Virus record (IMG/VR): IMGVR_UViG_2671180847_000008
Length of the DNA: 46,714 nucleotides
Direction: 5' to 3' (one strand)
From: a virus
Lineage: Duplodnaviria > Heunggongvirae > Uroviricota > Caudoviricetes
A program made the translations under genes and the position numbers. Below, one piece after another: positions 5,436 through 45,410 of this stretch (its first letter is position 1; every line of letters starts with the position of its first letter). Under the pieces are notes generated by a model, which was not told the DNA's origin, did no database searches, and saw only the letters and a program-made list of their open reading frames with translations.

Positions 5436-5962
5436 TTGCGTAACTCCGATAACTCGTTAAAACGTTCCATAAACATCCCGTAGGCATGGCCCGGTGCCAG
5501 TGGAACCACGTTGAACATCTCTGTTGCCGGGATGCCTTCCAGTACAGGCCAGAAAGAGCCATCATCAAGCCCGAGATCGCGGCGTTCGGTTGCCAGCATG
5601 ATGAGATCGGCATATTTCACAGGCGTGCTCATAACCGGGGGTAACCCGTATTTCTCACGGATTACGGCATCTATTTTTTCTTCCATCCGTTTATAGTCAG
5701 GAAGAAGGCGTTTCAGTGGAGCGGGGATGTCCTGGCAATATGCTTCTGTTGCATCATGCATTAACGCTTCAAAAGCAAATTCCTGCGGTACCAGCTGGCT
5801 GCAAAGCACCGCATGCTGGGCGACGCTGTAGAAGTGTGAAAGATGTCCTGCAAAGCGACAGATATTTGAAAGGGAAACTGCGATATCGTTAATCACGATG
5901 TCGTCTTTATTTATCTTGTCATAATAAAAATGCTTCCCGGAAAAAGTTTTAATAAATGACAT
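5426..5962 (-). CDS. HD-domain phosphohydrolase (YfdR-like 5'-deoxynucleotidase family)
   Basis: Start MSFIKTF with RBS GGAG; H...HD metal-binding motifs (AQHAVLCS, ALMHDATE). Confidence 0.75.
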   Translation of the reverse strand: MSFIKTFSGKHFYYDKINKDDIVINDIAVSLSNICRFAGHLSHFYSVAQHAVLCSQLVPQEFAFEALMHDATEAYCQDIPAPLKRLLPDYKRMEEKIDAVIREKYGLPPVMSTPVKYADLIMLATERRDLGLDDGSFWPVLEGIPATEMFNVVPLAPGHAYGMFMERFNELSELRKCA

Positions 5963-6090
5963 TTCGTTCTCCACTTTATATGCGCTGCACAGCGCTGAAT
6001 TCTGCTAAAAGGAAGCTCTCACCATCCGGTGATTATTGAGTTAATTACGTTTCCATAAATGCCCCCGCAGGGGCATTTGCAGTAATGAAA

Positions 6091-6915
6091 TCAGGCGGTG
6101 AAAGTACCAATAAAGGTTTCTACTTTGCTGTCTTTGAATTTCTCAACAAGCAGATCACGAAATTCGTTAGCCATTTCTTCCTGCATCGCTTCCAGCTGAA
6201 TAATGCGCAGAACCAGTACAGGACGATCGCCAGTGATAATGCTGAGGCGTAATTTAAACGGACGTTCTTTCAGACCTTCAAACGGAACGCATTTAAATTC
6301 AAATGCCACTGGCATAATGTCTTTGGTCTTCGCTTCGACAGACTCCATCAGGGAGCGTTTGCCGCTGAAGTCATTATCTTCAAAATCAGCGGTCTGGTTT
6401 GCTTCAATCGTGATTTTACGGACTGCCGCAGCCGCTTTTGTTGCCTGAATAGCGTCACCATTGGCATCAAAGCCCACAAGGTAGTCGGCCCAGTCTTCAA
6501 TCCATTCTGCCAGTGACTTCTGGGAGTTACGCTCGCCGTTAACAGACAACAGGGCAGAGAACGGTGCTGTCTTTTTCAGTTTGAGAGTGGCGGTGTTATC
6601 TGCGTGACCTGGTTCATCAATAGTACCCAGGTTAAGCACACTGACGGCTCGCATATTATCGGCATCGATAAAGCAGCGGGTGCCTTCATCTGCAAGATCT
6701 TTAGAATAACGGGTAAAGTCATCGATGCTGGCAGTGGAAAGCGCACCACGGAAACGGAAGCGATTTAAATTAAATTTTTCCAGATCATGAATGCGGAAAT
6801 TCTCAGGCAATGCCACAGCATCGGCACCAATATTACTGATAATTTCATTAACACCCTGAGCAGAAATAAGGGCATGGATTTGATTAATTGCGGTTGCGTC
6901 TAAGTTCTGAGACAT
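6091..6915 (-). CDS. YfdQ-like protein (DUF2303)
   Basis: 274-aa ORF; ATG with RBS GAGGA; family recalled from the CPS-53 prophage early region. Confidence 0.7.
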
Positions 6916-6980
6916 AATAAGTCCTCACTATATAAAGATATTCAGTGATGAGATAAATAATCAGTTTATTAAGAACGATA

Positions 6981-7343
6981 TTAACGACCTGCTGCGCGGA
7001 GTTTTCCGTCAGGCTCACCGGCAAGAGTCAGTAATTGTCCCTGGTCTTCCTGCAGAATAGTCAGGCGACCACCGCGATTGACATACATCGGCGTTTCGGT
7101 GGTGTCTTCTTCGGAAATTTTCCCGCGGTTAGTCGGACGAACATATGAGAGTTTGTGTTTTATTTTCACACGGTTCTCATCAAACGGTTCGATTTCCAGG
7201 TTGAGCGAGACCTTACCTTTGGTTTTCGTGTTCATCACACCGGAAGCGACTTCACTGAGAACTGCGCCGATTTTGGTTTCAAATACGCCGCCGTCCAGCT
7301 CCCCGATAAATTCCTGCACGTTGGTACTGCGTTCGCTAGCCAT
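6981..7343 (-). CDS. YfdP-like early protein; start at MASERSTNV
   Basis: ATG at 7343 with RBS AGGAG 7 nt upstream; the 77 codons of track ORF upstream of this start are R/S/C-rich and look non-coding. Confidence 0.65.
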   Translation of the reverse strand: MASERSTNVQEFIGELDGGVFETKIGAVLSEVASGVMNTKTKGKVSLNLEIEPFDENRVKIKHKLSYVRPTNRGKISEEDTTETPMYVNRGGRLTILQEDQGQLLTLAGEPDGKLRAAGR

Positions 7344-7989: not shown

Positions 7990-8000
7990 TTTGGTGGGTA

Positions 8001-8023
8001 ATGAAAAGCCACCTTCTGGTGGC
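8001..8023 (-). terminator. Terminator of the repressor transcript
   Basis: GCCACC-TTCT-GGTGGC hairpin followed on the minus strand by TTTTCAT, just past the repressor stop. Confidence 0.6.
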
Positions 8024-8045
8024 TAATTGATGTTGAGGTAGGAGG

Positions 8046-8738
8046 TTAATTGTGTCGCTTAAGGGTTTGTGACTGACTGATTAAGACCTTTCCAAAGACC
8101 ATAAACCGGTGTTCGTTTTCGCTGGTAATTCCCCATTCGCGGTAAATCTGATTATCAGAAATTACCAGCAGTTTATCAGGTATCATTTGCAGTCGTTTGA
8201 CGTAAATTTTATCATCAAAACCAAATACATATATACCATCCCCATCAAACTGATTGATACTGATATCAACGAAGATGAGATCTCCTGGCTCAATGGTTGG
8301 ACACATACTGTCCCCACGAACGTTGATAACTTTAATGTGATTTGCTGGTCGTCCACCAAACATCGATACAGCATTATCAGTTCTGTATTCAATGGCATGA
8401 ATCACATCAATGACATCACCGCCCTGGATAAGGCCATTTCCCGCACTGGCACTGACATCCAGCATTTCAATACGGAATACATCCTTCACCTGCGCAACAT
8501 CCTCACTAATACTGTTTTTACATACAGTATTACTTTTGAAGTCTGAGGTAAAGAGATCAGCAATATCAACACCTAAGCTCCTGGCAATATTACTCAGGGC
8601 TTGTTCAGTGAATTGTTTCTGCTTACCTGTTTCCAGGCGTGAGATATTCGCCGCATCCACTCCTATTGCTTCAGCGAGATCGGCGATTTTCATGTTCTTC
8701 GCCTGGCGAAGTTGTCTGACTCGATTTCCTATGTTCAT
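8046..8738 (-). CDS. cI: CI-like prophage repressor (HTH plus S24/LexA-like peptidase domain)
   Basis: N-terminal HTH (KIADLAEAIGVDAANISRLETG); C-terminal GDSM Ser and VKRL Lys autocleavage motifs; ATG with almost no leader, as for lambda cI. Confidence 0.9.
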   Translation of the reverse strand: MNIGNRVRQLRQAKNMKIADLAEAIGVDAANISRLETGKQKQFTEQALSNIARSLGVDIADLFTSDFKSNTVCKNSISEDVAQVKDVFRIEMLDVSASAGNGLIQGGDVIDVIHAIEYRTDNAVSMFGGRPANHIKVINVRGDSMCPTIEPGDLIFVDISINQFDGDGIYVFGFDDKIYVKRLQMIPDKLLVISDNQIYREWGITSENEHRFMVFGKVLISQSQTLKRHN

Positions 8739-8744
8739 GCGTTT

Positions 8745-8821
8745 ATTACATTTCTTTATTGCGCGTTAAGCAAATCAACTTGCGCAAAATATTTGCGTGA
8801 AATAATATGCTCATCACGCAA
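8745..8821. promoter_or_regulatory. Divergent immunity promoters with operator-like repeats (candidate pRM/pR/OR)
   Basis: Rightward TTGCGC-N17-TAATAT (8780-8808) ahead of cro; leftward TTGCTT-N17-TGTAAT (8773-8745) ahead of cI; TTGCGCGTTAAGCAA (8759-8773) plus inverted TTGCGTGA...TCACGCAA (8793-8821). Confidence 0.55.
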
Positions 8822-8835
8822 TATGTGGAGGTCAT

Positions 8836-9096
8836 ATGCAATCACCATTACGGAATGTGCGTAAGGCGCACGGATTTACTTTGCAGCATGTTGCTGCGGG
8901 CGTTCAGGTCAATCCAGCGACGCTGAGTCGTATTGAAAGACTGGAACAAATTCCATCTATCGATCTTGCAGAACGTCTGGCCAATTTTTTTAAGGGTGAA
9001 ATCAGCGAAATGCAGATTCTTTATCCGGCACGTTTTCAATCTAGCCAAAACCAGAATGGGTTTAAACCACAGGAACAGGAGGTAAGCCGTGGGTAA
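8836..9096 (+). CDS. cro: Cro-like HTH repressor
   Basis: ATG with RBS GGAGG; HTH FTLQHVAAGVQVNPATLSRIE; divergent from cI. Confidence 0.85.
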   Translation: MQSPLRNVRKAHGFTLQHVAAGVQVNPATLSRIERLEQIPSIDLAERLANFFKGEISEMQILYPARFQSSQNQNGFKPQEQEVSRG

Positions 9097-9640
9097 GCAT
9101 CACTGGAAAGTGGAAAAACAGCCTGAGTGGTACGTGAAAGCTGTCAGAAAAACTATCGCGGCGTTGCCGGGGGGTTACGCTGAAGCTGCTGACTGGCTGG
9201 ATGTAACAGAGAACGCTTTATTCAACCGCCTTCGTGCAGATGGCGATCAGATTTTCCCGCTGGGATGGGCAATGGTTTTACAGCGCGCGGCTGGCACTCA
9301 CTACATTGCGGATGCTGTCGCACAGTCTGCTGGTGGGGTGTTCGTATCGCTTCCTGAAATTGAGGAAGTAGAGAACGCCGATATAAACCAGCGCCTGCTG
9401 GAAGTCATCGAACAGATCGGGAATTACTCAAAGCAGATTCGTTCGGCAATCGAAGATGGGGTCGTGGAGCCACACGAGCAGACAGCAATTAATGATGAGT
9501 TGTATCTGTCAATTTCGAAGCTCCAGGAACATGCAGCACTGGTCTACAAAATCTTCTGCGCTCCAGAAAAGAGTGACGCCCGCGAGTGTGCAGCTCCGGG
9601 CGTCGTGGCGTTTTGTGTCTGTGGAGAAACTAACGCATGA
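9089..9640 (+). CDS. Early regulatory protein of uncertain function, in the position of cII
   Basis: GTG start with RBS AGGAGG 8 nt upstream; 183 aa; immediately downstream of cro. Confidence 0.6.
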   Translation: MGKHHWKVEKQPEWYVKAVRKTIAALPGGYAEAADWLDVTENALFNRLRADGDQIFPLGWAMVLQRAAGTHYIADAVAQSAGGVFVSLPEIEEVENADINQRLLEVIEQIGNYSKQIRSAIEDGVVEPHEQTAINDELYLSISKLQEHAALVYKIFCAPEKSDARECAAPGVVAFCVCGETNA

Positions 9641-9785
9641 ACAGTTTAACGGCAAATAACCGTTTGTCGCAACAGCTGGTGGTCAGTGTCGCTGAACACC
9701 TGTTGTTACGGCATGAATGCAGATTACCAAATCACCTGGCTGTAAGTAACCACAGAGAACTTTACCTGACTGTGGGGGGCGAGTT

Positions 9786-9965
9786 GTGCAGGAACTTAAC
9801 CGCTGGTTTCGTGACGGAAGAGGGCTTTATGTCCATGTTATTCGTTGGGAACCAGAAACACAGCGCGTTATCTATCTTCGCAAAGACTACCCGCATGAGT
9901 GCTTTAGTCCTTTGTGGAAATTCAGGCGTGATTTTGTTGAGTGTGAAGGACCACCAGCACATTGA
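9786..9965 (+). CDS. Candidate small ORF (59 aa) in a different frame from the 383-aa track ORF
   Basis: GTG start preceded by a G-rich RBS; protein-like translation (NRWFRDGRGLYVHVIRWEPETQRVIYLRKDYPHECFSPLWKFRRDFVECEGPPAH); followed by a terminator. Confidence 0.3.
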   Translation: MQELNRWFRDGRGLYVHVIRWEPETQRVIYLRKDYPHECFSPLWKFRRDFVECEGPPAH

Positions 9966-10050
9966 TTCTGCCATTCCGGGACGTTACACTGTTCAGGCAC
10001 CTTATAAAACGGGTGCCGGGCGTGGAAACCCGGAATTCACCAAAGCGCAC

Positions 10051-10074
10051 AACCGCGCTCTTGCGGTTTTTTTG
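10051..10074 (+). terminator. Rho-independent terminator inside the early-right operon (tR1-like)
   Basis: AACCGC-GCTCTT-GCGGTT hairpin followed by TTTTTTT. Confidence 0.65.
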
Positions 10075-10242
10075 TGTCATGAGCAGCATTACGCCCAAAT
10101 TATGGTGGGGCGTGCAGGGCCAACTTCGGTTGGGCCGGGTTCTTTGGTGACCGGTATTTCCACCCCTGTACGTCTCACCACCAATAAGGTCGTGGAAAGC
10201 CTTGGTGGTGAGTTATTAAAAATCACCAAAGAGGCTGCCATC

Positions 10243-10788
10243 ATGGCTACGATCCCAACCCTCACTCAACCTGAAATTGCCATCGTTGATGGTCAGGCTG
10301 TTACTTCATCCCTGGCTGTTGCCAACTTCTTCTCCAAACGTCATGACGATGTACTGAAAAAGATCCGCACGCTTGAATGCTCAGCATCATTCACTGCCCG
10401 CAATTTTTCGGTGAGTGATTACACTGATTGCACAGGTCGCAAACTTCCTTGCTACCAAATAACCCGCGACGGCTTTGCGTTTCTTGCTATGGGTTTCACG
10501 GGTAAACGTGCTGCCCAGTTCAAAGAGGCATACATCAATGCCTTTAACCAGATGGAGAAACAGCTTTCAAATCCCTCTGTACTGAGCGACGTTGCACATA
10601 ACGCCAGCGTTCTCTATTCCTACATTTCATCAATTCATCAGGTCTGGCTGCAGCAGCTTTATCCTATGTTGGCAAAAGCCGAATCTCCGCTGGCTGTTAG
10701 CTTGTATGACTATATTAATGATGCTTCGGCACTGGCCTGCCTCATAAATTTGTCGCTGAACCCTTCAGAGGTAAGGGGGCGCAAATGA
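10243..10788 (+). CDS. Rha-family phage regulatory protein (antirepressor-like)
   Basis: ATG with RBS AAAGAGG; Rha-domain-like N-terminus (TIPTLTQPEIAIVDGQAVTSSLAVANFFSKRHDDVLKKIR); the upstream 200 codons of the track ORF are judged non-coding. Confidence 0.75.
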   Translation: MATIPTLTQPEIAIVDGQAVTSSLAVANFFSKRHDDVLKKIRTLECSASFTARNFSVSDYTDCTGRKLPCYQITRDGFAFLAMGFTGKRAAQFKEAYINAFNQMEKQLSNPSVLSDVAHNASVLYSYISSIHQVWLQQLYPMLAKAESPLAVSLYDYINDASALACLINLSLNPSEVRGRK

Positions 10789-11009
10789 TCCGGAATATTT
10801 TCAAACGGTTTACCAATCAGACTTTCCGTTGTCCTCGTCCGGGTCAGTGGTACACCACACCTGCAGGGCATGTTCTACGTGTTAGCCTGGTTGACCGTGA
10901 ATGTCAGAAGGTGATTTGTGAACCGCTGGGCCGTAATTACCGCGTCAGTATGCCGCTTATAGCCTTTCGCTCCGGAAAAAACATGAAGCATCTCGGAGGT
11001 GCAGCATGA
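10785..11009 (+). CDS. Small hypothetical protein (74 aa)
   Basis: ATGA overlaps at both ends (translational coupling). Confidence 0.55.
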   Translation: MIRNIFKRFTNQTFRCPRPGQWYTTPAGHVLRVSLVDRECQKVICEPLGRNYRVSMPLIAFRSGKNMKHLGGAA

Positions 11010-11824
11010 GTATGGAGCTGATGGTTAAAGCGATGAAAATTCGAGTGGGTAATCCATTGCGAAAACTGGTTCTGATCAAGCTGGCTGATAATGCCAGCGA
11101 TCAGGGTGAGTGCTGGCCCAGCTACCAGCATATTGCTGACCAGTGCGAGATTAGCAAACGTTCTGTGATGAATCATATTGCGGCCCTTTGTGAGTCCGGG
11201 CTGGTAAAAAAAGTCACCCGGAAAGGTGAAAAAGGTAACTCAAGTAATATCTATCTCCTTCATCTGGATGGTGCAGGAGATTCACTAGGGGGTAGTGCAA
11301 ATAATTCACTATCTGGTGCAGCAAATTCACCAGGTAGTGCAGGAGTTGCACCAGGGGGTAGTGCAGGAGATTCACCCAGAACCAGTCACTCTTTTGAACC
11401 AGTCAAAGAACCAGTCAATGAACCAATAGCTGTTGGTGCATCAGTTGATGAGTCCGTGCGAGTTCGTTCAAACCGACCGGAATACTCTCCGGAGTTTGAG
11501 CAGGCATGGCTGGCATATCCCAAACGTGCTGGTGGCAATTCAAAATCTGCAGCCTTCAAAGCCTGGAAAGCCCGTTTGAATGAGGGGGTAAACCCCGAAA
11601 CCATGCTGGAAGGTGTGAAACGCTACGCGGGCTGGGTATCTGCGATGGGTAACAGCGGCACACAATTTGTGAAACAGGCTGTCACGTTCTTTGGTCCGGA
11701 TCGTCATTTCGAAGAATTCTGGGAAGTTCCTGCGGTATCTGCAGCCAGACGCGAGGACCCGTACTTCAAAGCCAGTTACGACAACGTGGACTACAGCCAG
11801 ATCCCGGCAGGATTCAGGGGGTGA
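11006..11824 (+). CDS. Replication initiator-like protein (N-terminal winged HTH)
   Basis: HTH region CWPSYQHIADQCEISKRSVMNHIAALCESGLVKK; internal iteron-like repeats; position equivalent to lambda O. Confidence 0.7.
   Translation: MSMELMVKAMKIRVGNPLRKLVLIKLADNASDQGECWPSYQHIADQCEISKRSVMNHIAALCESGLVKKVTRKGEKGNSSNIYLLHLDGAGDSLGGSANNSLSGAANSPGSAGVAPGGSAGDSPRTSHSFEPVKEPVNEPIAVGASVDESVRVRSNRPEYSPEFEQAWLAYPKRAGGNSKSAAFKAWKARLNEGVNPETMLEGVKRYAGWVSAMGNSGTQFVKQAVTFFGPDRHFEEFWEVPAVSAARREDPYFKASYDNVDYSQIPAGFRG
11270..11430. repeat. Iteron-like direct repeats inside the replication gene (candidate ori)
   Basis: Four to five ~21-24 bp repeats GGTGCAGGAGATTCAC / GGTAGTGCA..., then three to four GAACCAGTCA repeats at 11381-11430. 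Confidence 0.6.
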
Positions 11825-11826
11825 TC

Positions 11827-12315
11827 ATGAGTCTTTTGAATGAAGTTCAGAAATTCATTGAAGCCCATCCGGGGTGTACTTCCGGAGACATTGCGGATGC
11901 TTTTGCAGGTTACTCACGGCAGCGCGTTCTGCAGTCAGCAAGCAAGTTACGTCAGAGTGGGCGTGTGGCTCACCGTTGTGAAGGAGATACACGCAGACAT
12001 TTCCCACGCCTGACTGAGAGAGCGCAGGAGCCGGAACCACAACCAGTTCGTGAAACCAGACCTGTGCGCAATTTCTATGTCGGCACTAACGACCCGCGGG
12101 TGATTTTGTGCCTGACCCGCCAGGCGGAAGAACTGGAGTCCAGGGGCTTATACCGTCGTGCTGCAACGGTGTGGATGGCGGCATTCCGTGAAAGCCACTC
12201 CCAGCCAGAACGAAACAATTTTCTGGCGCGTCGTGAGCAGTGTTTACGGAAAAGCAGCAAGCGCGCTGCATCGGGTGAAGAGTGGTATCTGTCAGGGAAT
12301 TACGTGGGGGCTTAA
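11827..12315 (+). CDS. PerC-like transcriptional activator family protein
   Basis: C-terminal GLYRRAATVWMAAFRE resembles the PerC motif; RBS AGGGGG; start at the second Met. Confidence 0.5.
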   Translation: MSLLNEVQKFIEAHPGCTSGDIADAFAGYSRQRVLQSASKLRQSGRVAHRCEGDTRRHFPRLTERAQEPEPQPVRETRPVRNFYVGTNDPRVILCLTRQAEELESRGLYRRAATVWMAAFRESHSQPERNNFLARREQCLRKSSKRAASGEEWYLSGNYVGA

Positions 12316-12968
12316 TGAGTAATAAATATTGCCAGGCGCTGGTGGAACTGCGGAATAAACCAGCCCATGAACTGAAGGAAGTGGGCGATCAGTGGCGCAC
12401 GCCGGATAACATTTTCTGGGGAATTAACACCCTGTTTGGTCCGTTTGTTCTGGATCTGTTCACTGACGGTGATAACGCCAAATGTGCCGCGTATTACACG
12501 GCGGAAGACAACGCGCTGGCGCATGACTGGTCAGAACGTCTTGCGGAGCTTAAAGGTGCTGCCTTTGGTAATCCCCCATACAGCCGCGCCAGTCAGCATG
12601 AGGGGCAATACATCACCGGCATGCGTTACATCATGAAGCATGCCAGTGCCATGCGTGATAAAGGCGGGCGCTATGTTTTCCTGATCAAAGCTGCCACCAG
12701 CGAAGTGTGGTGGCCGGAAGATGCAGATCATATTGCTTTTATTCGCGGGCGTATTGGTTTTGAACTGCCTGCCTGGTTTATCCCGAAGGATGAGAAGCAG
12801 GTGCCGACAGGTGCGTTCTTCGCTGGTGCTATTGCTGTTTTCGACAAGACCTGGAAGGGACCGGCAATCAGCTACATCGGGCGCGATGAACTTGAGGCAT
12901 GTGGTGAGGCCTTTCTGGCGCAGGTTCGCCAGCAGGCAGAAAAACTGGTCAGGGAGATGGCGGCATGA
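12315..12968 (+). CDS. Phage Dam-like N6-adenine DNA methyltransferase
   Basis: NPPY catalytic motif (GNPPYS); TAATG overlap with the upstream gene. Confidence 0.8.
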   Translation: MSNKYCQALVELRNKPAHELKEVGDQWRTPDNIFWGINTLFGPFVLDLFTDGDNAKCAAYYTAEDNALAHDWSERLAELKGAAFGNPPYSRASQHEGQYITGMRYIMKHASAMRDKGGRYVFLIKAATSEVWWPEDADHIAFIRGRIGFELPAWFIPKDEKQVPTGAFFAGAIAVFDKTWKGPAISYIGRDELEACGEAFLAQVRQQAEKLVREMAA

Positions 12969-13291
12969 CGACGTTAACTCAATGCCAGCAGCAGGTGCTG
13001 GATATGCTGATTTCTTATCAGAAAGAACGTGGCTTCCCGCCAACCAATCAGGAGGTGGCAACCATGCTGGGATACCGTTCAGTGAATGCAGCGGTGGAGC
13101 ATCTTCGCGCACTGGAGAAAAAAGGCGTCATCACGATAAAGCGTGGCGTGGCCCGGGGGATAACGCTTCATACCGCGGTGAAGGACGACGACAGCGAGGC
13201 GGTCGGGATTATCCGCGCACTGCTTGCCGGTGAGGAAAACGCAAGGCTGCGTGCAACCCACTGGTTACATGAGAGGGACCTGAAAGTATGA
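12965..13291 (+). CDS. LexA N-terminal DNA-binding-domain homologue lacking the peptidase domain
   Basis: Aligns with E. coli LexA residues 1-70 (MKALTARQQEVFDLI...[34 protein letters not shown]); only 108 aa, no S24 domain. Confidence 0.75.
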   Translation: MTTLTQCQQQVLDMLISYQKERGFPPTNQEVATMLGYRSVNAAVEHLRALEKKGVITIKRGVARGITLHTAVKDDDSEAVGIIRALLAGEENARLRATHWLHERDLKV

Positions 13292-13677
13292 AGCTGATCC
13301 TGCCTTTTCCGCCCAGCGTGAACACGTATTGGCGACACCCCAACAAAGGGGCGTTTGCTGGTAAGAGCCTGATAAGCTCGGCGGGGCGAAAATTCCAGAG
13401 CGCGGCGTGCGCAGCAATAGTTGAGCAGTTACGTCGTCTGCCGAAACCAACGTCGGCACCTGCTTCAGTGGAGATCGTGTTGTTTCCTCCGGATAACCGG
13501 ATCCGCGATCTGGACAACTATAACAAGGCGCTGTTTGACGCCCTGACCCATGCGGGTGTGTGGGAAGACGACAGTCAGGTGAAAAGAATGCTGGTGGAGT
13601 GGGGACCGGTTATCCCGAAAGGGAAGGTCGAGATCACTATCAGTAAGTACGAGAAAACGGCGGGTGCAGCCGCCTGA
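13288..13677 (+). CDS. rusA: RusA Holliday-junction resolvase
   Basis: MKLILPFPPSVNTYWR N-terminus and DLDNYNKALFDALTHAGVWEDD catalytic region; ATGA overlap. Confidence 0.9.
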   Translation: MKLILPFPPSVNTYWRHPNKGAFAGKSLISSAGRKFQSAACAAIVEQLRRLPKPTSAPASVEIVLFPPDNRIRDLDNYNKALFDALTHAGVWEDDSQVKRMLVEWGPVIPKGKVEITISKYEKTAGAAA

Positions 13678-13696
13678 TCAAGAGGAGAAACGAAGT

Positions 13697-14506
13697 ATGA
13701 ATAATCTGATGGTCATTGATGGTATTGAAGTTCGTCGTGATGCTTATGGGCGTTACAGCCTGAACGATCTGCATCGCGCAGCAGTAGCATCTGGTGCAAA
13801 TGCCAGAACCAAGGAGCCGGGAAAGTTTCTTTCCAGCCAACAAACTGTTGAGCTTGTTCATGAATTGACCAACACCCAGAATTTGGGTGTTGACCCGGTG
13901 AGTGTGATTCATGGGGGAAATGAACGGGGAACGTATGTCTGCAAGGAACTGGTGTATGCCTATGCAATGTGGATCAGCCCGTCATTCCATCTGAAGGTGA
14001 TCCGTACTTTCGATATGGTAACCAGCGCACCGGAAAAATTATCCGGACAGGCTGCTGACAAGATGCAGGCTGGCGTGATCCTGCTGGACTTTATGCGCCG
14101 GGAGTTAAACCTGTCTAACTCTTCAGTGCTTGGTGCTTGTCAGAAACTCCAGGAGGCTGTTGGCTTACCGAATCTGGCACCGCGCTATGCCATTGATGCT
14201 CCTGCTGATGCACACGATGGCTCAAGTCGCCCGACACTGTCACTGAGCGCACTGCTGAAACAGTATGGTATACGCCTGACGGCTAATCAGGCATATCACC
14301 AGATGGTGAAACTGGGGATCGTCGAGCAGCGCGAACGATACAGCCGTACCGCGATTAACAACATCAAAAAATTCTGGTCGCTGACAGCGAAAGGTTGCAT
14401 GTTCGGCAAGAACATCACCAGTCCCGCAAATCCGCGCGAGACGCAGCCGCATTTCTTCGAATCCCGATTCCCTGAGCTGTTAAAGCTGCTCGATACCGTT
14501 CATTGA
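13697..14506 (+). CDS. KilA-N domain protein (antirepressor-like)
   Basis: Start MNNLMVIDG with RBS GAGGAG; KilA-N-like N-terminus (VRRDAYGRYSLNDLHRAA...KELVYAYAMWISPSFHLKV). Confidence 0.75.
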   Translation: MNNLMVIDGIEVRRDAYGRYSLNDLHRAAVASGANARTKEPGKFLSSQQTVELVHELTNTQNLGVDPVSVIHGGNERGTYVCKELVYAYAMWISPSFHLKVIRTFDMVTSAPEKLSGQAADKMQAGVILLDFMRRELNLSNSSVLGACQKLQEAVGLPNLAPRYAIDAPADAHDGSSRPTLSLSALLKQYGIRLTANQAYHQMVKLGIVEQRERYSRTAINNIKKFWSLTAKGCMFGKNITSPANPRETQPHFFESRFPELLKLLDTVH

Positions 14507-14507
14507 G

Positions 14508-15503
14508 GTGACCGTGAGAGCGCTACTGACCCCTGAAATTGCCCCGCGTATGGGGATCGTATTGTTCAGGCCAGGTTCAGAGCTGATGCCCCTGTTTATG
14601 CAGGGGCGTGTCCTGCTGGAGCCTGAGCCGGAGCGTTATTCATCTTTCGCCAGTGGTGCCGTTCCGGCGGCATCACAACCGCTGGCGGATGATCTTGCCG
14701 TTCGGGCCGTGTTCCGCAATGAGGCAGTGATCCGTCGTGCTGGTGGCGTGGAATGTCTTGAAAGCTGGTTACTTCGTGAAAAAGGCTGCCAGTGGCCTCA
14801 TTCCGACTGGCACAGCGAGAACATGACCACAATGCGACACGCTCCGGGTGCAATCCGTCTGTGCTGGCACTGCGATAACCAGCTGCGCGATCAGTTCACG
14901 GAACGGCTGGAATCAATGGCAACGGATAACTGTGCCCGCTGGGTGTTGTCTGTTGTGCGTCGGGATCTCGGTTTTGATGACAGTCACGTTGTGACAATGC
15001 CGGAACTGTGCTGGTGGCTGATTCGTAATGATCTGGCGGATGCCTTACCGGAAAGTGCAGCCCGTAAGGCACTGAGATTACCGAAGCCTGTTGTGCCGTC
15101 TGTTACCCGGGAAAGTGACCTTGTGCCTTCGGTTCCTGCCACCAGCATCATCCAGGATAAGGCGAAAAAGGTGCTGGCGCTGAAAGTGGATCCGGAGTCG
15201 CCGGAGTCTTTTATGTTACGCCCAAAACGTCGCCGCTGGGTTAATGAAAAGTACACGCGCTGGGTTAAGACACAGCCGTGTGCATGTTGTGGAAAGCCCG
15301 CTGATGATCCCCACCACCTGATAGGTCACGGTCAGGGTGGAATGGGAACAAAAGCGCATGACCTTTTTGTGTTGCCTTTGTGCAGAAAGCATCACGACGA
15401 GCTGCATGCGGATACCGTGGCATTTGAAGAGAAGTATGGCTCCCAGCTGGAGCTGATATTTCGTTTTATCGATCGTGCGCTGGCAATTGGCGTGCTGGCC
15501 TGA
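14508..15503 (+). CDS. DUF968-family protein with HNH-like Cys/His motif
   Basis: [21 protein letters not shown]...CRKHHDELH near the C-terminus; start codon uncertain (GTG at 14508). Confidence 0.65.
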
Positions 15504-15520
15504 TTTTGTGGAGAAAGTTG

Positions 15521-15886
15521 ATGCGTGATATTCAAATGGTTCTTGAACGTTGGGGGGCATGGGTGGCAAATAATCACGAGGATGTCACTTGGTCGTCTAT
15601 TGCTGCAGGATTTAAAGGACTAATCCCTTCAAAAGTAAAATCCCGCCCGCAATGTTGTGACGATGACGCGATGATCATTTGTGGATGCATGGCTCGCCTG
15701 AAAAAGAACAACAGCGATTTGCACGATTTATTAGTGGATTATTATGTAGGTGGTATGACGTTTATGGCGCTTGCCCGTAAACATGGGCGTTCTGATTGCT
15801 GGGTTGGGCGTTTATTGCAAAAGGCTGAAGGTGTAGTTGATGGCATGTTAATGATGTTAGAAATTGAGCTAGAGATGGATCGTTAG
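15521..15886 (+). CDS. quuD: Late-gene antiterminator Q (QuuD-like)
   Basis: [22 protein letters not shown]...[16 protein letters not shown] recalled as the DLP12 QuuD family; RBS GGAG. Confidence 0.8.
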
Positions 15887-15928
15887 AAGACCTCTTATTG
15901 AGAGGGTAATTGAATCAGTTTAATGTGT

Positions 15929-15958
15929 GGGGAGTCGATTTATTCTCCCCATTTTATT
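15929..15958 (+). terminator. Terminator hairpin just downstream of Q
   Basis: GGGGAG-N10-CTCCCC followed by ATTTTATTT. Confidence 0.55.
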
Positions 15959-15970
15959 TAATTAATTTAC

Positions 15971-16417
15971 TTAAGGTTTTAATTCATCAAGACGTTGTTG
16001 GATAGTGTTTTTGCTTGCGTTGTCTGTTATAGCCATTTGTTGTACTTGCCCCATTGCCATTTGAGTTTCCATCCACATATCGGCCCACACTTTTGTATCG
16101 TTATTAACTTGAGCGATAGTAAATCTGACTTTTGATACCGGGGTTGTTGAATAGGCATTGCCGATTAACATTTGTCCAAAAACAGCAGACCCGCCTTCCA
16201 GTTCTTTACCACATATAACACTGCTGTTATCCGCGTTGTAAATTATCAACCCTCTACTATTGCAGTAATTCACAAGGGCATCTTTGACTTTATCTTTTGT
16301 CGTATTTTGATAAACCCCCTCAGGTTTTCCTGATTGAGTTTTCTTTATCAATGGTACGGAAGAAGTACAACCTGAAATGATAGTTGCGCTAAGTAATAGT
16401 ACAGTCATTTTATTCAT
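15971..16417 (-). CDS. Lipoprotein of unknown function (moron), antisense to the late operon
   Basis: Signal peptide with lipobox LLSATIISGC; AT-rich; candidate promoter TTGATT-N17-ATAATT on the minus strand (16479-16451). Confidence 0.7.
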   Translation of the reverse strand: MNKMTVLLLSATIISGCTSSVPLIKKTQSGKPEGVYQNTTKDKVKDALVNYCNSRGLIIYNADNSSVICGKELEGGSAVFGQMLIGNAYSTTPVSKVRFTIAQVNNDTKVWADMWMETQMAMGQVQQMAITDNASKNTIQQRLDELKP

Positions 16418-39716: not shown

Positions 39717-39726
39717 TGGGGTGAAT

Positions 39727-42700
39727 ATGGCAGTAAAGATTTCAGGTGTACTGAAAGACGGCGCAGGTAAACCGGTACAGAACTGCACAATCCAGCTGAA
39801 AGCAAAACGTAACAGCACCACGGTGGTGGCGAACACGGTGGCCTCAGAAAATCCGGATGAAGCCGGGCGTTACAGCATGGACGTTGAGTACGGTCAGTAC
39901 AGCGTTATTCTGTTGGTGGAAGGCTTCCCGCCATCGCATGCCGGGACCATCACCGTGTATGAAGACTCACAACCGGGTACGCTGAATGATTTTCTCGGTG
40001 CCATGACGGAGGATGATGTCCGTCCGGAGGCACTGCGCCGCTTTGAACTGATGGTGGAAGAGGTGGCGCGTAACGCGTCCGCAGTGGCGCAGAACACAGC
40101 AGCCGCGAAGAAGTCAGCCAGCGATGCCAGCACATCAGCCCGTGAGGCGGCAACCCATGCGACTGATGCTGCAGGCTCAGCACGTGCAGCCAGCACGTCA
40201 GCCGGACAGGCCGCTTCGTCGGCTCAGTCAGCGTCTTCCAGCGCAGGAACGGCATCAACAAAGGCTACTGAAGCATCAAAAAGTGCTGCCGCTGCAGAGT
40301 CTTCAAAAAGCGCGGCAGCCACCAGTGCCGGTGCAGCGAAAACGTCAGAAACGAATGCCGCAGCATCACAAAAATCTGCGGCCACTTCTGCATCCACCGC
40401 GACCACGAAAGCGTCAGAAGCTGCCACCTCAGCCCGGGATGCGTCGGCTTCAAAAGTGGCGGCAAAATCATCAGAAACGAGCGCAGCCTCGAGCGCCGGC
40501 AGTGCAGCTTCCTCGGCAACGGCGGCAGGAAATTCCGCGAAGGCCGCAAAAACGTCTGAGACGAATGCGGATAACAGCGCACAGGCGGCAGCAGACTCAC
40601 AAACTGCATCGGCAAACTCCGCGACAGCAGCCAAAAAATCAGAAACCAACGCGAAAAATAGTGAGGCAGCAGCAAAGGTCAGCGAAACCAACGCTAAAGC
40701 GTCAGAGAACAAGGCGAAAGAATATCTCGACAAGGTCGGGGGACTCGTCAGCCCGATGACGCAATACGATTGGCCTGTTGTTACTGCTAGTGAGTCTCTT
40801 TACATCAAGATCGCGAAACTTTCCGATCCTGGAGCCAGCAGAAGTCATGTAACGCTAATGGTTACTAACGCTGGTAACTACGGCTCCCCTTACGGAAACA
40901 TTGACTTTATCGAGATCTCGGCGCGCGGTCTGCCTTCTTTGCTTAGTGCGGATAATGTTTCTCGTCATCTGAGTATACGCCGCTTAGGGTCAACCGGGCT
41001 GACCGATAACAACCAGATGCGTTACGGCCTGGTTAAAGGTGACGGCTTTATTGAGGTTTGGGCATTCCAGGGTGCGTTTATTAACGACGCAAAGGTTGCG
41101 GTGCTGGCGCAGACAACACTAAACACAGAATTATACATTCCAGACGGATTTGTTAAGCAAACCGCCGCGCCTTCTGGATATATTGAAGGCAACGTTGTAA
41201 GGATTTACGACCAGGTAAACAAGCCGACTAAAGCAGATTTGGGTCTTTCTAATGCTATGCTTACAGGCGCTTTCGGTCTTGGCGGTAGCGGGATATCAAC
41301 AAACGGCAAGATGAGCGATGTAGAGATCTTAAAAGCTCTGCGTGACAAAGGTGGTCATTTCTGGCGCGGTGATAAGCCGACCGGAAGCACGGCGACCATT
41401 TATAGCCACGGTTCTGGTATATTCTCGCGGTGCGGCGATACGTGGTCAGCGATCAATATCGACTACTCAACCGCGAAGATTAAGATCTATGCCGGCAACG
41501 ATGCCCGGCTTAACAACGGGACTTTTAGCGTCAATGAGCTATACGGCTCGGCAAACAAGCCGTCGAAATCGGATGTTGGACTTGGCAACGTAACGAACGA
41601 TGCGCAGGTAAAAAAAACCGGTGATACAATGACCGGTGACTTGACAATCAAAAAAGGTACACCGTCAGTCTTCCTGCGGGCAGACAGTGGAGTCACCGCT
41701 TTGCGGTTTTATACTGGCGATAACACAGAGCGCGGCATAATCTATGCTGGTCCTAACACTGATTCGCTTGGCGAAGTTCGCATCAGGGCAAAGACAGCAG
41801 GGGGGACATCAGGAGGGGATCTTGTTGTTCGTCACGACGGGAGGGTTGAAGTCCGTGATCTCACAGTAGCGTATAAAATTAAAAGCAGAACGATTGAGAT
41901 TGCAAATACCGACACTGACTCATCGGCAACTACGCTAAGCATCTATGGAGTACAGCACACGCCGTTGGTTTTAACGCGTTCTGGTTCTTCTGAAAATGTG
42001 TCCATTGGGTTTAAGTTAGACAACGTGAACCCAAAGTATCTTGGAATTGATACTAATGGGGATCTGGCTTTTGGTGAGAGTCCTGATCAGAAACAAAACA
42101 GCAAATTGATCACGCAAGCGAAACTCGACAAGGGATTAACGATTGGTGGTCAACTGGCTTTCAAAGGTACGACAGCGTTTTCAGCCGTTGCTACGTTCAG
42201 TGCCGGGATAGCAGGAGCCATCGAGCCGGAAAACATTGACGGCCAGACGGTTAATCTTAACAACCTGACCATCATCAAGTCAGATGCCGGGGCAGTTAAA
42301 TACTATATTTGTCCATCCTCTGCAGGTGGTGCAAATATCACCAACAAGCCTGACGGCGTAACAGGTAACTTTTTGCTCCGTGTTGAATCGACTCGTAAGG
42401 TTAGGGATTCAGATTATGCGAACATACAAACGCTGATTAACAGCGACACAAAACGTATATACGTTCGCTTTGTTGTTAATGGAAACTGGACAGCGTGGAG
42501 TCAGGTTGTTGTTTCCGGATGGAATCAGGATGTAACCGTCAGGTCGTTAACCTCGACGACTCCATCAAAATTAGGTGGCGGGCGGATTGATGTGCTTGGA
42601 AGTACGTCAGATTATGGCAGCATGAATTGTACCGTTCGTGGTGTTGATAGCACTGGAACCAATTCGGCGTGGTCGGTAGGCACATCAGAAAGCACAGGCA

Positions 42701-45212: not shown

Positions 45213-45231
45213 TACACGACCTCGTTATTTC

Positions 45232-45267
45232 GGGTTCCCAGAAAACGTGGGAACCTGTGCGGGAACC
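45232..45267. repeat. GGGAACC repeats between int and the att core (candidate arm-type sites)
   Basis: GGGTTCCC (45232-45239), GGGAACC (45249-45255), GGGAACC (45261-45267); a further GGGAACCC at 1229-1236 lies on the phage side of attL. Confidence 0.4.
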
Positions 45268-45300
45268 TAACGCGAGAAAAATAGCCTGAAATGTTCAAAA

Positions 45301-45410
45301 ATGCACGATAATCCTGAAACACAGAAAACTAATCAAACCAGCGTGATGCCTGAAAAAACTGGCGCTTACTGGAGTTCTCGGTTTAGCATTGCTCCTATGC
45401 TCGACTGGAC
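45301..45410 (+). repeat. attR region: prophage-supplied replacement 5' end of dusA
   Basis: About 80% identical to 1071-1180; encodes a diverged N-terminus ([35 protein letters not shown]) fused in frame to the rest of dusA. Confidence 0.8.

What the first reader, a model, noticed from the sequence alone, without database searches (positions are those of the whole stretch)
11270..11430. Iteron-like direct repeats inside the replication initiator gene
Two families of short direct repeats (GGTGCAGGAGATTCAC-like and GAACCAGTCA) are embedded in the coding sequence and encode a Gly/Ser/Ala-rich linker. This parallels the lambda origin, which lies inside gene O, and marks the probable ori of this phage.
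Basis: partly seen in the sequence, partly recalled or inferred. Interest (0 to 1): 0.5.

Follow-up and report, generated by a model that had tools for sequence, protein, structure and literature searches.

The report
Replication origin inside phage initiator gene
The repeats are real and are very probably the prophage's replication origin: five binding sites for the phage's own initiator protein, then a short DNA element kept almost unchanged in related phages of many bacterial genera, all written inside the initiator's own gene as in phage lambda.

Summary
Gene 11006-11824 (+) encodes a 272-aa winged-helix (HTH_36) replication initiator. Its disordered linker is encoded by five 15-bp dyad repeats, GTGCA-N5-TKCAC, at 11271-11375 (spacing 24/21/21/24). 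These are the only five sites for this pattern in 46.7 kb. Three exact GAACCAGTCA copies follow at 11379-11417.

Comparative data show both repeat families are DNA elements, not peptide repeats.
- Homologous genes across Gammaproteobacteria share the layout: winged helix, 2-10 phased iterons, core, then a swappable C-domain.
- The iteron sequence changes with the recognition helix (about 12 classes; Mantel r 0.54, p 2e-4).
- The same iteron occurs in other reading frames and in inverted orientation.
- The core keeps 96% codon identity at identical residues, against 38% in the N-domain. It is also read in two or three frames.
- Natural chimeras cross over inside the core.
- Relatives carry lambda P, DnaC+DnaB or a primase-helicase directly downstream. 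This prophage has none.

The lambda-like origin reading is supported (about 0.8) but untested experimentally. There is no classical AT-rich tract and no DnaA box. No searchable paper describes these iterons or the core. I rate it a new variant of a known kind, of moderate interest.

The parts
11006..11824 (+). Replication initiator gene (272 aa), homologue of SfV orf39. It is the HTH_36 protein of the 'Eru6' replication region of Stx phages.
   Evidence: ORF. Pfam HTH_36 1.8e-11 and a weak DnaD_N hit. PHROG 270 'replication initiation protein' 2.4e-88. 99% identical to the annotated 'replication protein' of SfV, mEp460 and Stx2c phages. The representative Eru6 phage AP012537 matches at 98.7%.
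11006..11269 (+). N-terminal winged-helix DNA-binding domain (aa 1-88). The putative recognition helix is aa 50-63 (nt 11153-11194, SKRSVMNHIAALCE).
   Evidence: AlphaFold2 with a 29-sequence alignment gives pLDDT 72-94 for aa 1-89, with helices 3-11, 17-29, 40-47 and 51-64 and a wing at 67-73/79-85. Foldseek returns only winged-helix proteins, including the DnaD N-domain 2v79. The helix is the most variable part of the domain.
11230..11269 (.). Locally unstable stretch immediately left of iteron 1 (GC 0.33). It encodes the wing of the DNA-binding domain.
   Evidence: Nearest-neighbour duplex stability is at the 99th percentile of 40-mers in the window. There is no excess synonymous conservation here, so any role in unwinding is only possible, not shown.
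11271..11285 (.). Iteron 1, GTGCAGGAGATTCAC
11295..11309 (.). Iteron 2, GTGCAAATAATTCAC
11316..11330 (.). Iteron 3, GTGCAGCAAATTCAC
11337..11351 (.). Iteron 4, GTGCAGGAGTTGCAC (perfect 5-N5-5 palindrome)
11361..11375 (.). Iteron 5, GTGCAGGAGATTCAC. It always lies 24 bp from the preceding iteron and 3 bp from the core.
11376..11412 (.). Conserved origin core, CCAGAACCAGTCACTCTTTTGAACCAGTCAAAGAACC. It holds GAACCAGTCA at 11379 and 11396 plus the GAACC at 11408, and is shared by all iteron classes.
   Evidence: Nearly identical DNA in E. coli, Salmonella, Klebsiella, Aeromonas and Vibrio phages whose N-domains are 62-82% identical in alignment. Codon identity at identical residues is 96%, against 38% in the N-domain. 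Found in 139 phage records. 66 of 80 prophage loci picked by N-domain peptides alone carry it with at most 3 mismatches in 28 nt. The crossover point of a natural chimera lies here.
11408..11429 (.). Third exact GAACCAGTCA (11408-11417) and a degenerate fourth copy, GAACCAATAG (11420-11429). This is the 12-bp-period part of the array and its copy number varies among close relatives.
   Evidence: Variants 4 aa longer or shorter at this point are seen. The 40-mer 11390-11429 has GC 0.38 and 93rd-percentile instability. As single-stranded DNA it has no structure (z +0.5/+0.8).
11270..11476 (+). Coding sequence of the disordered linker (aa 89-157) between the two domains. It contains the whole origin.
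   Evidence: AlphaFold2 pLDDT is 29-47 for aa 91-157. This is the length-variable part of the alignment.
11477..11755 (+). C-terminal helical domain (aa ~158-250). It is exchangeable between initiators and is presumed to recruit the host helicase.
   Evidence: PHROG hits for 'replication protein', 'DnaD-like helicase loader' and 'primosomal protein' cover aa 145-272. The domain is shared with initiators that have unrelated N-domains. Helices are predicted at pLDDT 55-80. There is no Pfam or PDB match.

Best explanation
Region 11271-11429 is the vegetative replication origin of this dusA-integrated SfV-like prophage. It is written inside the linker-coding part of the initiator gene.

Inferred mechanism:
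- Dimers of the initiator's N-terminal winged-helix domain bind the five 15-bp dyad iterons (half-sites GTGCA / TKCAC). These sites are about two helical turns apart and so lie on one face of the DNA, giving an O-some-like nucleoprotein complex.
- The complex distorts the adjacent DNA. Strand opening and helicase loading then take place at or next to the conserved core of GAACCAGTCA repeats, which starts 3 bp after the last iteron.
- The C-terminal domain, tethered by the flexible linker, recruits the host DnaB (with DnaC), because this phage encodes no helicase, loader or primase.

What is shown and what is inferred:
- Shown by comparison: the anatomy, DNA-level selection on both repeat families, covariation of iteron with recognition helix, co-inheritance of N-domain and iterons, and the replication-module context.
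- Inferred only: binding, unwinding at the core, and helicase recruitment by the C-domain.
For: 1. The five iterons are the only matches in the window, and no shuffle reached that count (0/100).
2. Homologous genes from phages of 8 or more genera share one layout: winged helix, 2-10 repeats spaced 21/24 bp (or 23+22), with the last interval 24 bp in nearly every array, then the core, then a variable C-domain.
3. Iteron sequence tracks the recognition helix. Examples: SKRSVM with GTGCA-N5-TKCAC; RSTVK with GGGCAG-N3-CTGCCC; KRTAMR or ERTFMR with GTGAC-N5-GTCAC; SRTAVR with TGCCA-N5-TGGCA; SR(K/T)TAI with GTGTA-N5-TACAC. Across 30 helix classes the Mantel Spearman correlation is 0.54 (p 2e-4), against 0.15 (p 0.07) for the rest of the domain. 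Partial r is 0.54 versus -0.13.
4. The repeats are DNA, not peptide. The same iteron is read in another frame where spacings are 23/22 bp (L017, L091, L129, RAH1, mEp010). It also occurs as the exact reverse complement in Vibrio phage 236O40-1 and Shewanella prophages.
5. Core: 219/229 (96%) codon identity at identical residues versus 473/1237 (38%) in the N-domain. All 12 codons score at least 0.9 and the signal drops immediately afterwards. The 10-mer is read in 2-3 frames.
6. Natural domain swaps keep N-domain and iterons together. The crossover in one chimera (P0066) lies inside the core.
7. Relatives have lambda P, DnaC+DnaB or Toprim-DnaB genes directly downstream, so this gene occupies the 'O' position.
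8. The repeats encode a predicted disordered linker between two folded domains, as in lambda O.
9. No other repeat cluster in the window is a candidate origin.
Against: - There are no experimental data for any member of this initiator family in the searchable literature.
- There is no classical AT-rich unwinding tract. The flanks reach only GC 0.33 and 0.38, and many sites in the window are less stable.
- There is no DnaA box within 7 kb and no GATC cluster.
- The role of the core is inferred only from position and conservation. An RNA-level constraint, or a peptide constraint combined with a DNA constraint, is not formally excluded.
- The covariation test does not fully remove phylogenetic non-independence.
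- Some near-identical genes carry only one or two iterons (P0042, P0028), so five copies are not required, or those prophages are defective.
- The function of the C-domain rests on PHROG names only.
Confidence: 0.8

Rival explanations
1. The repeats are only a slippage-prone low-complexity region that encodes a flexible Gly/Ser/Ala linker. They have no function as DNA.
For: Copy number varies among near-identical genes, from 242 to 302 aa. The encoded segment is predicted to be disordered. All five copies in this window are in one reading frame.
Against: In relatives the same 15-mer is read in a shifted frame, or inverted, and then encodes unrelated peptides (VQEIH, GESPAL). Half-sites are invariant while the central 5 bp vary. 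The phasing is fixed at 21/24 bp. The sequence covaries with the recognition helix rather than with the rest of the protein.
Confidence: 0.03
2. The 15-mers are binding sites of the protein, but they serve autoregulation, copy control or incompatibility (as a roadblock or by handcuffing). Replication would start elsewhere in the genome.
For: Plasmid iterons have such dual roles (established knowledge). No strong AT-rich tract or DnaA box lies next to the array.
Against: No other repeat cluster or candidate origin exists in the window. The array always abuts a strongly conserved non-coding-type element at a fixed 3-bp distance. The arrangement in the interdomain linker is the one proven for lambda (PMC7466680).
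Confidence: 0.08
3. The conserved GAACCAGTCA core is kept for a reason other than unwinding or helicase loading. One possibility is that the peptide RTSHSFEPVxEP is a short linear motif that binds a host factor. Another is that the sequence is maintained as a homology patch for swapping C-domains, or acts at the mRNA level.
For: The peptide is conserved too. Chimeras do cross over inside it. It is not AT-rich.
Against: Synonymous sites are 96% conserved, against 38% nearby, including the rare AGA codon. The 10-mer recurs in different frames, so in some lineages the peptide is EPVTLEPV or PNQSYITSK instead. Distant relatives keep AACCGTCA or AACCATCA repeats at about 12-bp period with a different peptide. 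It has no RNA or single-stranded-DNA structure and no Rfam hit. Selection for evolvability alone would not hold synonymous sites across orders of bacteria.
Confidence: 0.15

Closest known systems
Phage lambda ori-lambda inside gene O (O-some), and the six-iteron origins of Stx phages 933W and P27
   Same: The origin lies in the middle of the initiator gene, in the segment that encodes the linker between the DNA-binding N-domain and the helicase-recruiting C-domain. It has an array of 4-6 dyad-symmetric direct repeats bound by initiator dimers. The iterons are specific to each phage, whereas the adjacent segment is shared between phages. Iteron number varies naturally (PMC7466680; the lambdoid comparison is established knowledge).
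   Different: The initiator is not a Pfam Phage_rep_O protein but an HTH_36 / DnaD_N-like winged helix. The iterons are 15 bp (5-N5-5), not 19 bp. In place of the ~40-bp AT-rich tract there is a GC 0.38-0.43 core of GAACCAGTCA direct repeats. This prophage has no P-type loader.
Iteron plasmids (RK2 oriV/TrfA, pPS10 RepA, F RepE, R6K pi)
   Same: Winged-helix initiators bind phased ~22-bp iterons. Next to the iterons lies an unwinding element made of short direct repeats (13-mers), which some Rep proteins bind sequence-specifically as single-stranded DNA (established knowledge; review PMC4980987). The 12-bp-period GAACCAGTCAAA repeats resemble this more than they resemble lambda's AT tract.
   Different: Plasmid origins are intergenic and usually contain DnaA boxes; none occurs here. 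There is no sequence relationship to those Rep families.
HTH_36 proteins of non-lambdoid Stx-phage replication regions Eru5, Eru6, Eru8, Eru11 and Eru13 (Fagerlund et al. 2022, PMC8951638)
   Same: It is the same protein family and, for Eru6, the same gene. The representative Eru6 phage Stx2a_WGPS2 matches at 98.7%. The Rha/Ash gene lies upstream, as described in that paper.
   Different: That paper classifies gene content only. It does not mention iterons or an origin and states that nothing is known about replication of Eru phages.
DnaD-like replisome organisers of Firmicute phages, with the origin inside the gene (e.g. SPP1 G38P/oriL) - from my own knowledge, not checked here
   Same: A DnaD_N-like winged-helix N-domain (weak Pfam hit; 2v79 among the fold hits), with binding sites inside its own gene.
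   Different: Different hosts and different repeats. No significant sequence similarity was established here.

Membership tests
lambda-type origin (ori embedded in initiator gene) | Array of several direct repeats, each with internal dyad symmetry, inside the initiator ORF | tested here: met
   Five 15-mers of 5-N5-5 form at 11271-11375. The palindrome score is 4.2/5.
lambda-type origin (ori embedded in initiator gene) | Repeats lie in the segment that encodes the flexible linker between a DNA-binding N-domain and a C-domain specific for the helicase or loader partner | tested here: met
   AlphaFold2 gives a folded 1-89, a disordered 91-157 and a helical 160-216. The C-domain is exchanged between relatives together with the downstream helicase or loader gene type.
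lambda-type origin (ori embedded in initiator gene) | Initiator homologous to lambda O (Pfam Phage_rep_O) | tested here: not met
   Pfam reports HTH_36, DnaD_N, B-block_TFIIIC and HTH_20 only. There is no Phage_rep_O hit at E<=0.01.
lambda-type origin (ori embedded in initiator gene) | Pronounced AT-rich unwinding tract next to the iterons | tested here: not met
   The right flank 11390-11429 has GC 0.38 (93rd percentile of instability) and the left flank 11230-11269 has GC 0.33 (99th). Neither approaches the least stable sites of the window.
lambda-type origin (ori embedded in initiator gene) | Iterons specific to the initiator variant, adjacent segment shared between variants | tested here: met
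   About 12 helix/iteron classes share one common core.
lambda-type origin (ori embedded in initiator gene) | Partner helicase-loader gene (P) directly downstream | tested here: not met
   In the window the next genes are PerC-like, Dam, LexA-like and RusA. No helicase, loader or primase is present anywhere. Relatives do have lambda P, DnaC+DnaB or a primase-helicase.
lambda-type origin (ori embedded in initiator gene) | Initiator binds the repeats; the fragment supports initiator-dependent replication | not testable with these tools
   Needs EMSA or footprinting and a plasmid replication assay.
Iteron-plasmid origin | DnaA box(es) in the origin | tested here: not met
   TTWTNCACA occurs only at 18656, 25295 and 36380, fewer than expected by chance.
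Iteron-plasmid origin | Iterons phased about 22 bp apart and bound by a winged-helix Rep | tested here: inconclusive
   Phasing at 21/24 bp and a winged-helix fold are met. Binding is untested and the protein is not related to plasmid Rep families.
HTH_36 phage replication initiators (PHROG 270 / 8540 / 391; SfV orf39, phi24B 'O') | Sequence membership above the curated threshold | tested here: met
   HTH_36 scores 44.1 bits against a cut-off of 25. PHROG 270 scores 2.4e-88. 5426 homologues at E<=1e-5.
HTH_36 phage replication initiators (PHROG 270 / 8540 / 391; SfV orf39, phi24B 'O') | Position at the head of a replication module (after cI/cro/cII-like genes, before the helicase or loader where present) | tested here: met
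   The window has a cI-like repressor (8046-8738, -), cro-like and CII/CP76-like genes and Rha/Ash upstream. Relatives are shown.

The most novel reading that the evidence does not exclude
The GAACCAGTCA-repeat core (11376-11417) may be a previously undescribed, sequence-specific origin core. It would be used by a very large family of HTH_36 initiators in temperate phages of Enterobacterales, Vibrionales, Aeromonadales, Alteromonadales, Pseudomonadales, Pasteurellales and others. On this reading it is where the duplex is opened or the helicase is loaded. It would be recognised as a sequence, possibly as single-stranded DNA, by the invariant part of the initiator or by a conserved host replication protein, rather than acting through AT-richness. 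Because it is invariant, it would also serve as the homology patch through which phages exchange helicase-recruitment domains while keeping each initiator paired with its iterons.
Probability: 0.35. Interest if true: 0.65.

Novelty: new variant of a known kind. Interest (0 to 1): 0.5.

Why it matters
It gives a concrete, testable origin for the SfV / ST64B / mEp460 / cdtI / Stx2c-type prophages, found in about half of complete E. coli genomes (at least partial matches in 2718 of 5426, full-length in 897). By extension it does the same for the HTH_36-type ('Eru5/6/8/11/13', phi24B 'O') replication regions of Shiga-toxin phages. A 2022 survey stated that nothing is known about how those replicate (PMC8951638), although replication drives toxin gene dosage.

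The table of about 12 matched recognition-helix and iteron classes is a ready-made specificity code for a winged-helix family. It is also a tool for predicting origins and replication incompatibility in prophages.

The invariant, non-AT-rich core poses a clear question about how the origin opens and how the helicase is delivered when the phage brings no loader.

Phage origins with iterons were recently reported as the site where the Lamassu defence system is enriched during infection (bioRxiv 10.1101/2025.04.02.646746). Mapped origins in non-lambda phages are therefore useful for defence studies.

Tried and rejected
- A promoter/terminator scan of 10700-12400 found no sigma-70-like site. It found two terminator-like sites, at chance level.
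- Rfam at E<=1 gave only a spurious mir-875 match (22 bits against a gathering score of 84).
- No DnaA box and no GATC cluster lies at the origin.
- A classical AT-rich tract is absent.
- Folding the core as single-stranded DNA showed no structure (z +0.5/+0.8). The iteron array folds somewhat better than shuffles (z -2.6), as expected from its dyads.
- A sixth iteron-like site, GTGAAGGAGATACAC at 11978, was rejected because about one such match is expected by chance.
- NCBIfam and a PDB sequence search gave nothing informative for either domain.
- Single-sequence AlphaFold2 was too poor to use (pLDDT 44). The alignment-based model resolved the N-domain but left the C-domain at pLDDT 55-80, and Foldseek matched only the winged helix. 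The C-domain fold therefore stays unassigned.
- Searches for the iteron strings, core strings and the peptide found no relevant paper.
- Searches combining SfV, ST64B, 24B, iterons and origin found only lambda/933W work.
- The SfV genome paper (Allison 2002) and the Weigel & Seitz 2006 review are not held. Prior mention of the repeats there cannot be excluded.
- The core is rare in the plasmid collection (16 records). Where the gene table lists a feature under the match it is a helix-turn-helix protein gene, and several records are of phage-genome size. It is not a general plasmid element.
Full report
**Observation**

The window is a complete prophage in an E. coli chromosome. A host DUF2713 gene lies at 1-708, and an integrase at 44115-45212 sits next to dusA at 45301-46338. 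ORF 11006-11824 (+) encodes a 272-aa protein.

Five copies of a 15-bp motif lie inside it, at 11271, 11295, 11316, 11337 and 11361 (spacing 24/21/21/24):
- GTGCAGGAGATTCAC
- GTGCAAATAATTCAC
- GTGCAGCAAATTCAC
- GTGCAGGAGTTGCAC
- GTGCAGGAGATTCAC

The pattern GTGCANNNNNTKCAC occurs nowhere else in the 46,714 bp. Shuffles gave a mean of 0.36 matches and none of 100 reached the observed count. Each unit is a 5-N5-5 imperfect palindrome.

Three bases after the last unit come three exact GAACCAGTCA copies (11379, 11396, 11408; spacing 17 and 12). These are the only exact copies in the window. A degenerate fourth, GAACCAATAG, follows. Tandem Repeats Finder sees these arrays and only two other short arrays in the whole window, both in late genes. 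The encoded peptide is GAGDSLGGSANNSLSGAANSPGSAGVAPGGSAGDSP-RTSHSFEPVKEPVNEP.

**What the gene is**

Pfam assigns HTH_36 to aa 17-67 (1.8e-11), with a sub-threshold DnaD_N match. PHROGs place the protein in 'replication initiation protein' and 'replication initiation O-like' families (2.4e-88 for PHROG 270). They split it into an N-part (aa 1-140) and a C-part (aa 135-272), each with its own families. The C-part families carry names such as 'DnaD-like helicase loader' and 'primosomal protein'.

The gene is 99% identical to the 'replication protein' of SfV (orf39), mEp460, cdtI and Stx2c phages, and 89% identical to ST64B sb42. Matches to it, full-length or partial, occur in 2718 of 5426 complete E. 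coli genomes; 897 genomes hold a place covering at least 80% of the gene. It is the HTH_36 protein of replication region 'Eru6' of Fagerlund et al. 2022. That paper says nothing is known about replication of Eru phages and does not mention iterons.

An AlphaFold2 model built on 29 homologues gives three parts:
- A confident winged helix at aa 1-89 (pLDDT 72-94), with helix 51-64 as the recognition helix and a wing at 67-73/79-85.
- A disordered segment at aa 91-157 (pLDDT about 30-47).
- A helical C-domain from aa 160.

Foldseek returns only winged-helix proteins, the DnaD N-domain among them. Both repeat families therefore lie in the DNA that encodes the interdomain linker.

**Context**

Upstream lie a cI-like repressor, cro-like and CII-like genes, a Rha/Ash protein and a 74-aa ORF. 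Downstream lie PerC-like, Dam, LexA-like, RusA, KilA-N, DUF968 and Q genes. No helicase, loader or primase gene is present anywhere in the window.

In relatives that share the N-domain, the next gene encodes one of the following:
- lambda P (Klebsiella RAH1, Pseudomonas phi2).
- DnaC-like followed by DnaB (Aeromonas AsXd-1).
- A Toprim-DnaB primase-helicase (Salmonella S135, E. coli Min27).

This gene family therefore occupies the 'O' position of lambdoid replication modules.

**Comparative anatomy**

Homologues were found by protein similarity (tblastn). They come from E. coli, Salmonella, Klebsiella, Aeromonas, Vibrio and Pseudomonas phages. All show the same order of parts:
1. Winged helix.
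2. Three to eight direct repeats.
3. A nearly invariant sequence, CAGAACCAGTCACTCTTT(T/A)GAACCAGTCAA(A/T)GAACC.
4. A C-domain of one of several unrelated types.

The repeats differ by clade:

| Phage | Repeat |
|---|---|
| Min27 / F451 | GGGGCAGGAGCTGCCCC x3 |
| S135 | TGCCGCCAGAAAGCA-type x5 |
| RAH1 | TGCCA-N5-(T/A)nGCA x4 |
| D67, mEp010, D79 | GTGAC-N5-GTCAC |
| Window, ST64B, AsXd-1, cdtI | GTGCA-N5-TKCAC |

A scan of IMG/VR for the invariant sequence returned at least 120 loci, every one inside such a gene. Together with the tblastn-derived phage genes this gave 92 distinct N-parts. Their arrays have 2-8 units spaced 21 or 24 bp (or 23+22), and the last interval is 24 bp in nearly every array.

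**Evidence that the 15-mers are DNA sites matched to the protein**

- After registering each array on its dyad axis, about 12 recognition-helix classes each have their own half-site.
- Over 30 helix classes, half-site distance correlates with recognition-helix distance (Spearman 0.54, Mantel p 2e-4). It does not correlate with the rest of the N-domain (0.15, p 0.07). Partial correlations are 0.54 and -0.13. This test does not remove all phylogenetic dependence.
- Where spacings are 23 and 22 bp, the same 15-mer is translated in another frame. For example, GTGCAGGAGATTCAC gives VQEIH in L017, L091 and L129, and the RAH1 unit gives both PMPSK and GVCHE.
- Vibrio phage 236O40-1 and Shewanella prophages carry GTGAATCTCCTGCAC. 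This is the exact reverse complement of the window's iteron. Their recognition helices are of the related RRSV(I/M) type.
- Within arrays the outer 5+5 bases are constant while the central five vary.
- Copy number varies between near-identical genes. Proteins of 242, 250, 272, 286, 294, 296 and 302 aa correspond to about 1-10 units. cdtI has eight units through a 66-bp triplication step, and P0028 has two units in many assemblies.

A pure peptide-repeat explanation does not survive the frame-shift and inversion observations.

**Evidence that the GAACCAGTCA core is a DNA element**

I used only sequences found by protein similarity, and only pairs with less than 75% N-domain identity. Codons encoding identical residues are themselves identical in 473/1237 cases (38%) in the N-domain, and in 219/229 cases (96%) in the 12 codons of the core. 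Per column, all 12 core codons score at least 0.9 and the signal stops immediately afterwards. N-domain columns mostly score 0.1-0.5. The rare Arg codon AGA is kept.

In the window itself, copy 1 of the 10-mer is read as (R)TSH and copy 2 as EPV.

An independent sample was drawn from one genome per species using N-domain peptides only (KLVL[IL]KLAD, C[WY]PS...). It returned 80 loci spanning Enterobacterales, Pseudomonas, Aeromonas, Shewanella, Marinomonas, Halomonas-like genera, Aliivibrio, Microbulbifer, Avibacterium and a Cardiobacteriaceae MAG. In that sample:
- 66 of 80 loci have the 28-nt core with at most 3 mismatches.
- 77 of 80 have at least one GAACCAGTCA (at most 1 mismatch) after the last iteron.
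- 70 of 80 have two or three copies.
- Spacings are 17 bp (53 cases) and 12 bp (27 cases), with a few of 14-16.
- The motif falls in two main reading frames (102 and 66 cases) and rarely a third (4).

More distant homologues keep related repeats at about 12-bp period: GAACCGTCA in Pseudomonas phi2 and AACCATCA in Vibrio 1.236.O.

The core occurs in 139 phage records, including phi24B 'O', Pectobacterium ZF40, Stenotrophomonas BUCT709 and Aggregatibacter S1249. In the records listed, wherever a feature is annotated under the match it is this gene family, and none shows a rep_origin feature there. It occurs in only 16 'plasmid' records.

**Module exchange**

Proteins P0066, P0069 and P0072 combine Min27-type, RAH1-type and L019-type N-domains, each with its own iterons, with a C-domain essentially identical to the window's. 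I checked the DNA of P0066. It is about 99% identical to Min27 up to the first part of the core, apart from one iteron fewer, and 100% identical to the window from ...AAGAACCAGTCAATGAACC onward. The N-domain and iterons are thus inherited as a unit. The C-domain, and in other phages its helicase or loader partner, is swapped by recombination inside the core.

**What is not there**

- No sigma-70-like promoter.
- No convincing Rfam family.
- No DnaA box within 7 kb.
- No GATC cluster.
- No classical AT-rich tract. The two flanks of the array are only moderately unstable: 11230-11269 has GC 0.33 (99th percentile) and 11390-11429 has GC 0.38 (93rd percentile).
- As single-stranded DNA the core is unstructured.

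**Mechanism proposed**

Initiator dimers bind the five phased iterons through the winged helix and form an O-some-like complex. Strand opening and helicase loading then occur at or beside the conserved core. The C-domain, on its flexible tether, recruits host DnaB/DnaC, since the phage supplies no loader. The first step is strongly supported by comparison but not by experiment. The second and third steps are inference. I put 0.8 on 'this region is the origin and the 15-mers are the initiator's sites', and about 0.35-0.4 on the core being the site of opening or loading.

**Comparison with known systems**

The architecture is that of ori-lambda in gene O and of the 933W/P27 origins (PMC7466680). 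Shared features are iterons in the linker-coding segment, specificity in the iterons, a shared adjacent segment, and natural variation in iteron number.

It is not a member of the lambda O family (no Phage_rep_O hit). It also lacks the AT tract and the P gene, so I do not file it as ori-lambda-type in the strict sense. The repeated 10/12-mers next to the iterons recall the 13-mer unwinding elements of iteron plasmids. However, the origin is intragenic, has no DnaA box, and its protein is unrelated to plasmid Reps.

No searchable paper contains the iteron strings, and those containing the 10-mer strings are unrelated eukaryotic studies. Two older sources that might mention the repeats (Allison 2002; Weigel & Seitz 2006) could not be read.

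**Verdict**

It is a new variant of a known kind, of moderate interest (0.5). The most novel defensible reading concerns the invariant core.

Noticed in passing
window 44115-46338 and 1-708: The window is a whole prophage integrated next to dusA. The integrase lies at 44115-45212 (-) and dusA at 45301-46338 (+). A host DUF2713 gene lies at the other end.
   Followed up: partly
window 8000-16000 (early region): There is no helicase, helicase-loader or primase gene anywhere in the prophage, so this is an 'initiator-solo' replication module. Relatives with the same N-domain, iterons and core have lambda P, DnaC+DnaB or a Toprim-DnaB primase-helicase directly downstream.
   Followed up: yes
window 11821-12315 (+): A PerC-like gene with an N-terminal MarR-like segment overlaps the initiator stop codon. 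It follows this C-domain type in the relatives examined here (SfV-like phages, ST64B sb43, and the P0066 chimera). One database protein, P0027 (436 aa), fuses HTH_36 with PerC/MarR_2. That could be a frameshift artefact or a hint of a functional link.
   Followed up: no
window 11978-11992: GTGAAGGAGATACAC in the PerC-like gene resembles an iteron (12/15 matches). About one match to the loose pattern is expected by chance in the window, so it is probably fortuitous.
   Followed up: partly
L002 3387-5399 (phage Min27 'P'): The primase-helicase downstream of the Min27 initiator contains an intein (Hint plus LAGLIDADG domains).
   Followed up: no
window ~5500-7000 (early-left operon; cf. L137 6798-8715): Homologues of yfdP, yfdQ (DUF2303) and yfdR are present in the related prophages examined (L001, L137, L139); in the window itself only the DUF2303 gene (6091-6915) was confirmed. 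A paper found in the search reports in its title that YfdR of the K-12 CPS-53 prophage binds DnaA and that overexpressing the yfdQ-yfdR-yfdS-yfdT cluster inhibits chromosomal initiation (PMC4776307). This may be relevant to a phage that must borrow the host replication machinery.
   Followed up: no
L139 / L140 6001-6753 (protein P0028): Otherwise near-identical prophages carry an initiator gene with only two iterons (250 aa); the protein is listed on 64 contigs (the longest 5.2 Mb) and in 90 blocks of the contig index. The neighbouring early genes look intact in L139, whereas L140 has an IS insertion nearby. Whether two iterons suffice is open.
   Followed up: partly
window 40178-40203 and 41793-41819: Two short tandem repeats (periods 13 and 12) lie in the tail-fibre gene 39721-43506.
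   Followed up: no
L132 1720-1900 (Vibrio phage D79): This is a distant homologue (30% identity) with five GTGACAGAGAGTCAC iterons. It lacks the GAACCAGTCA core and has two CCTAACA repeats at that position instead. It may be an alternative core type.
   Followed up: no
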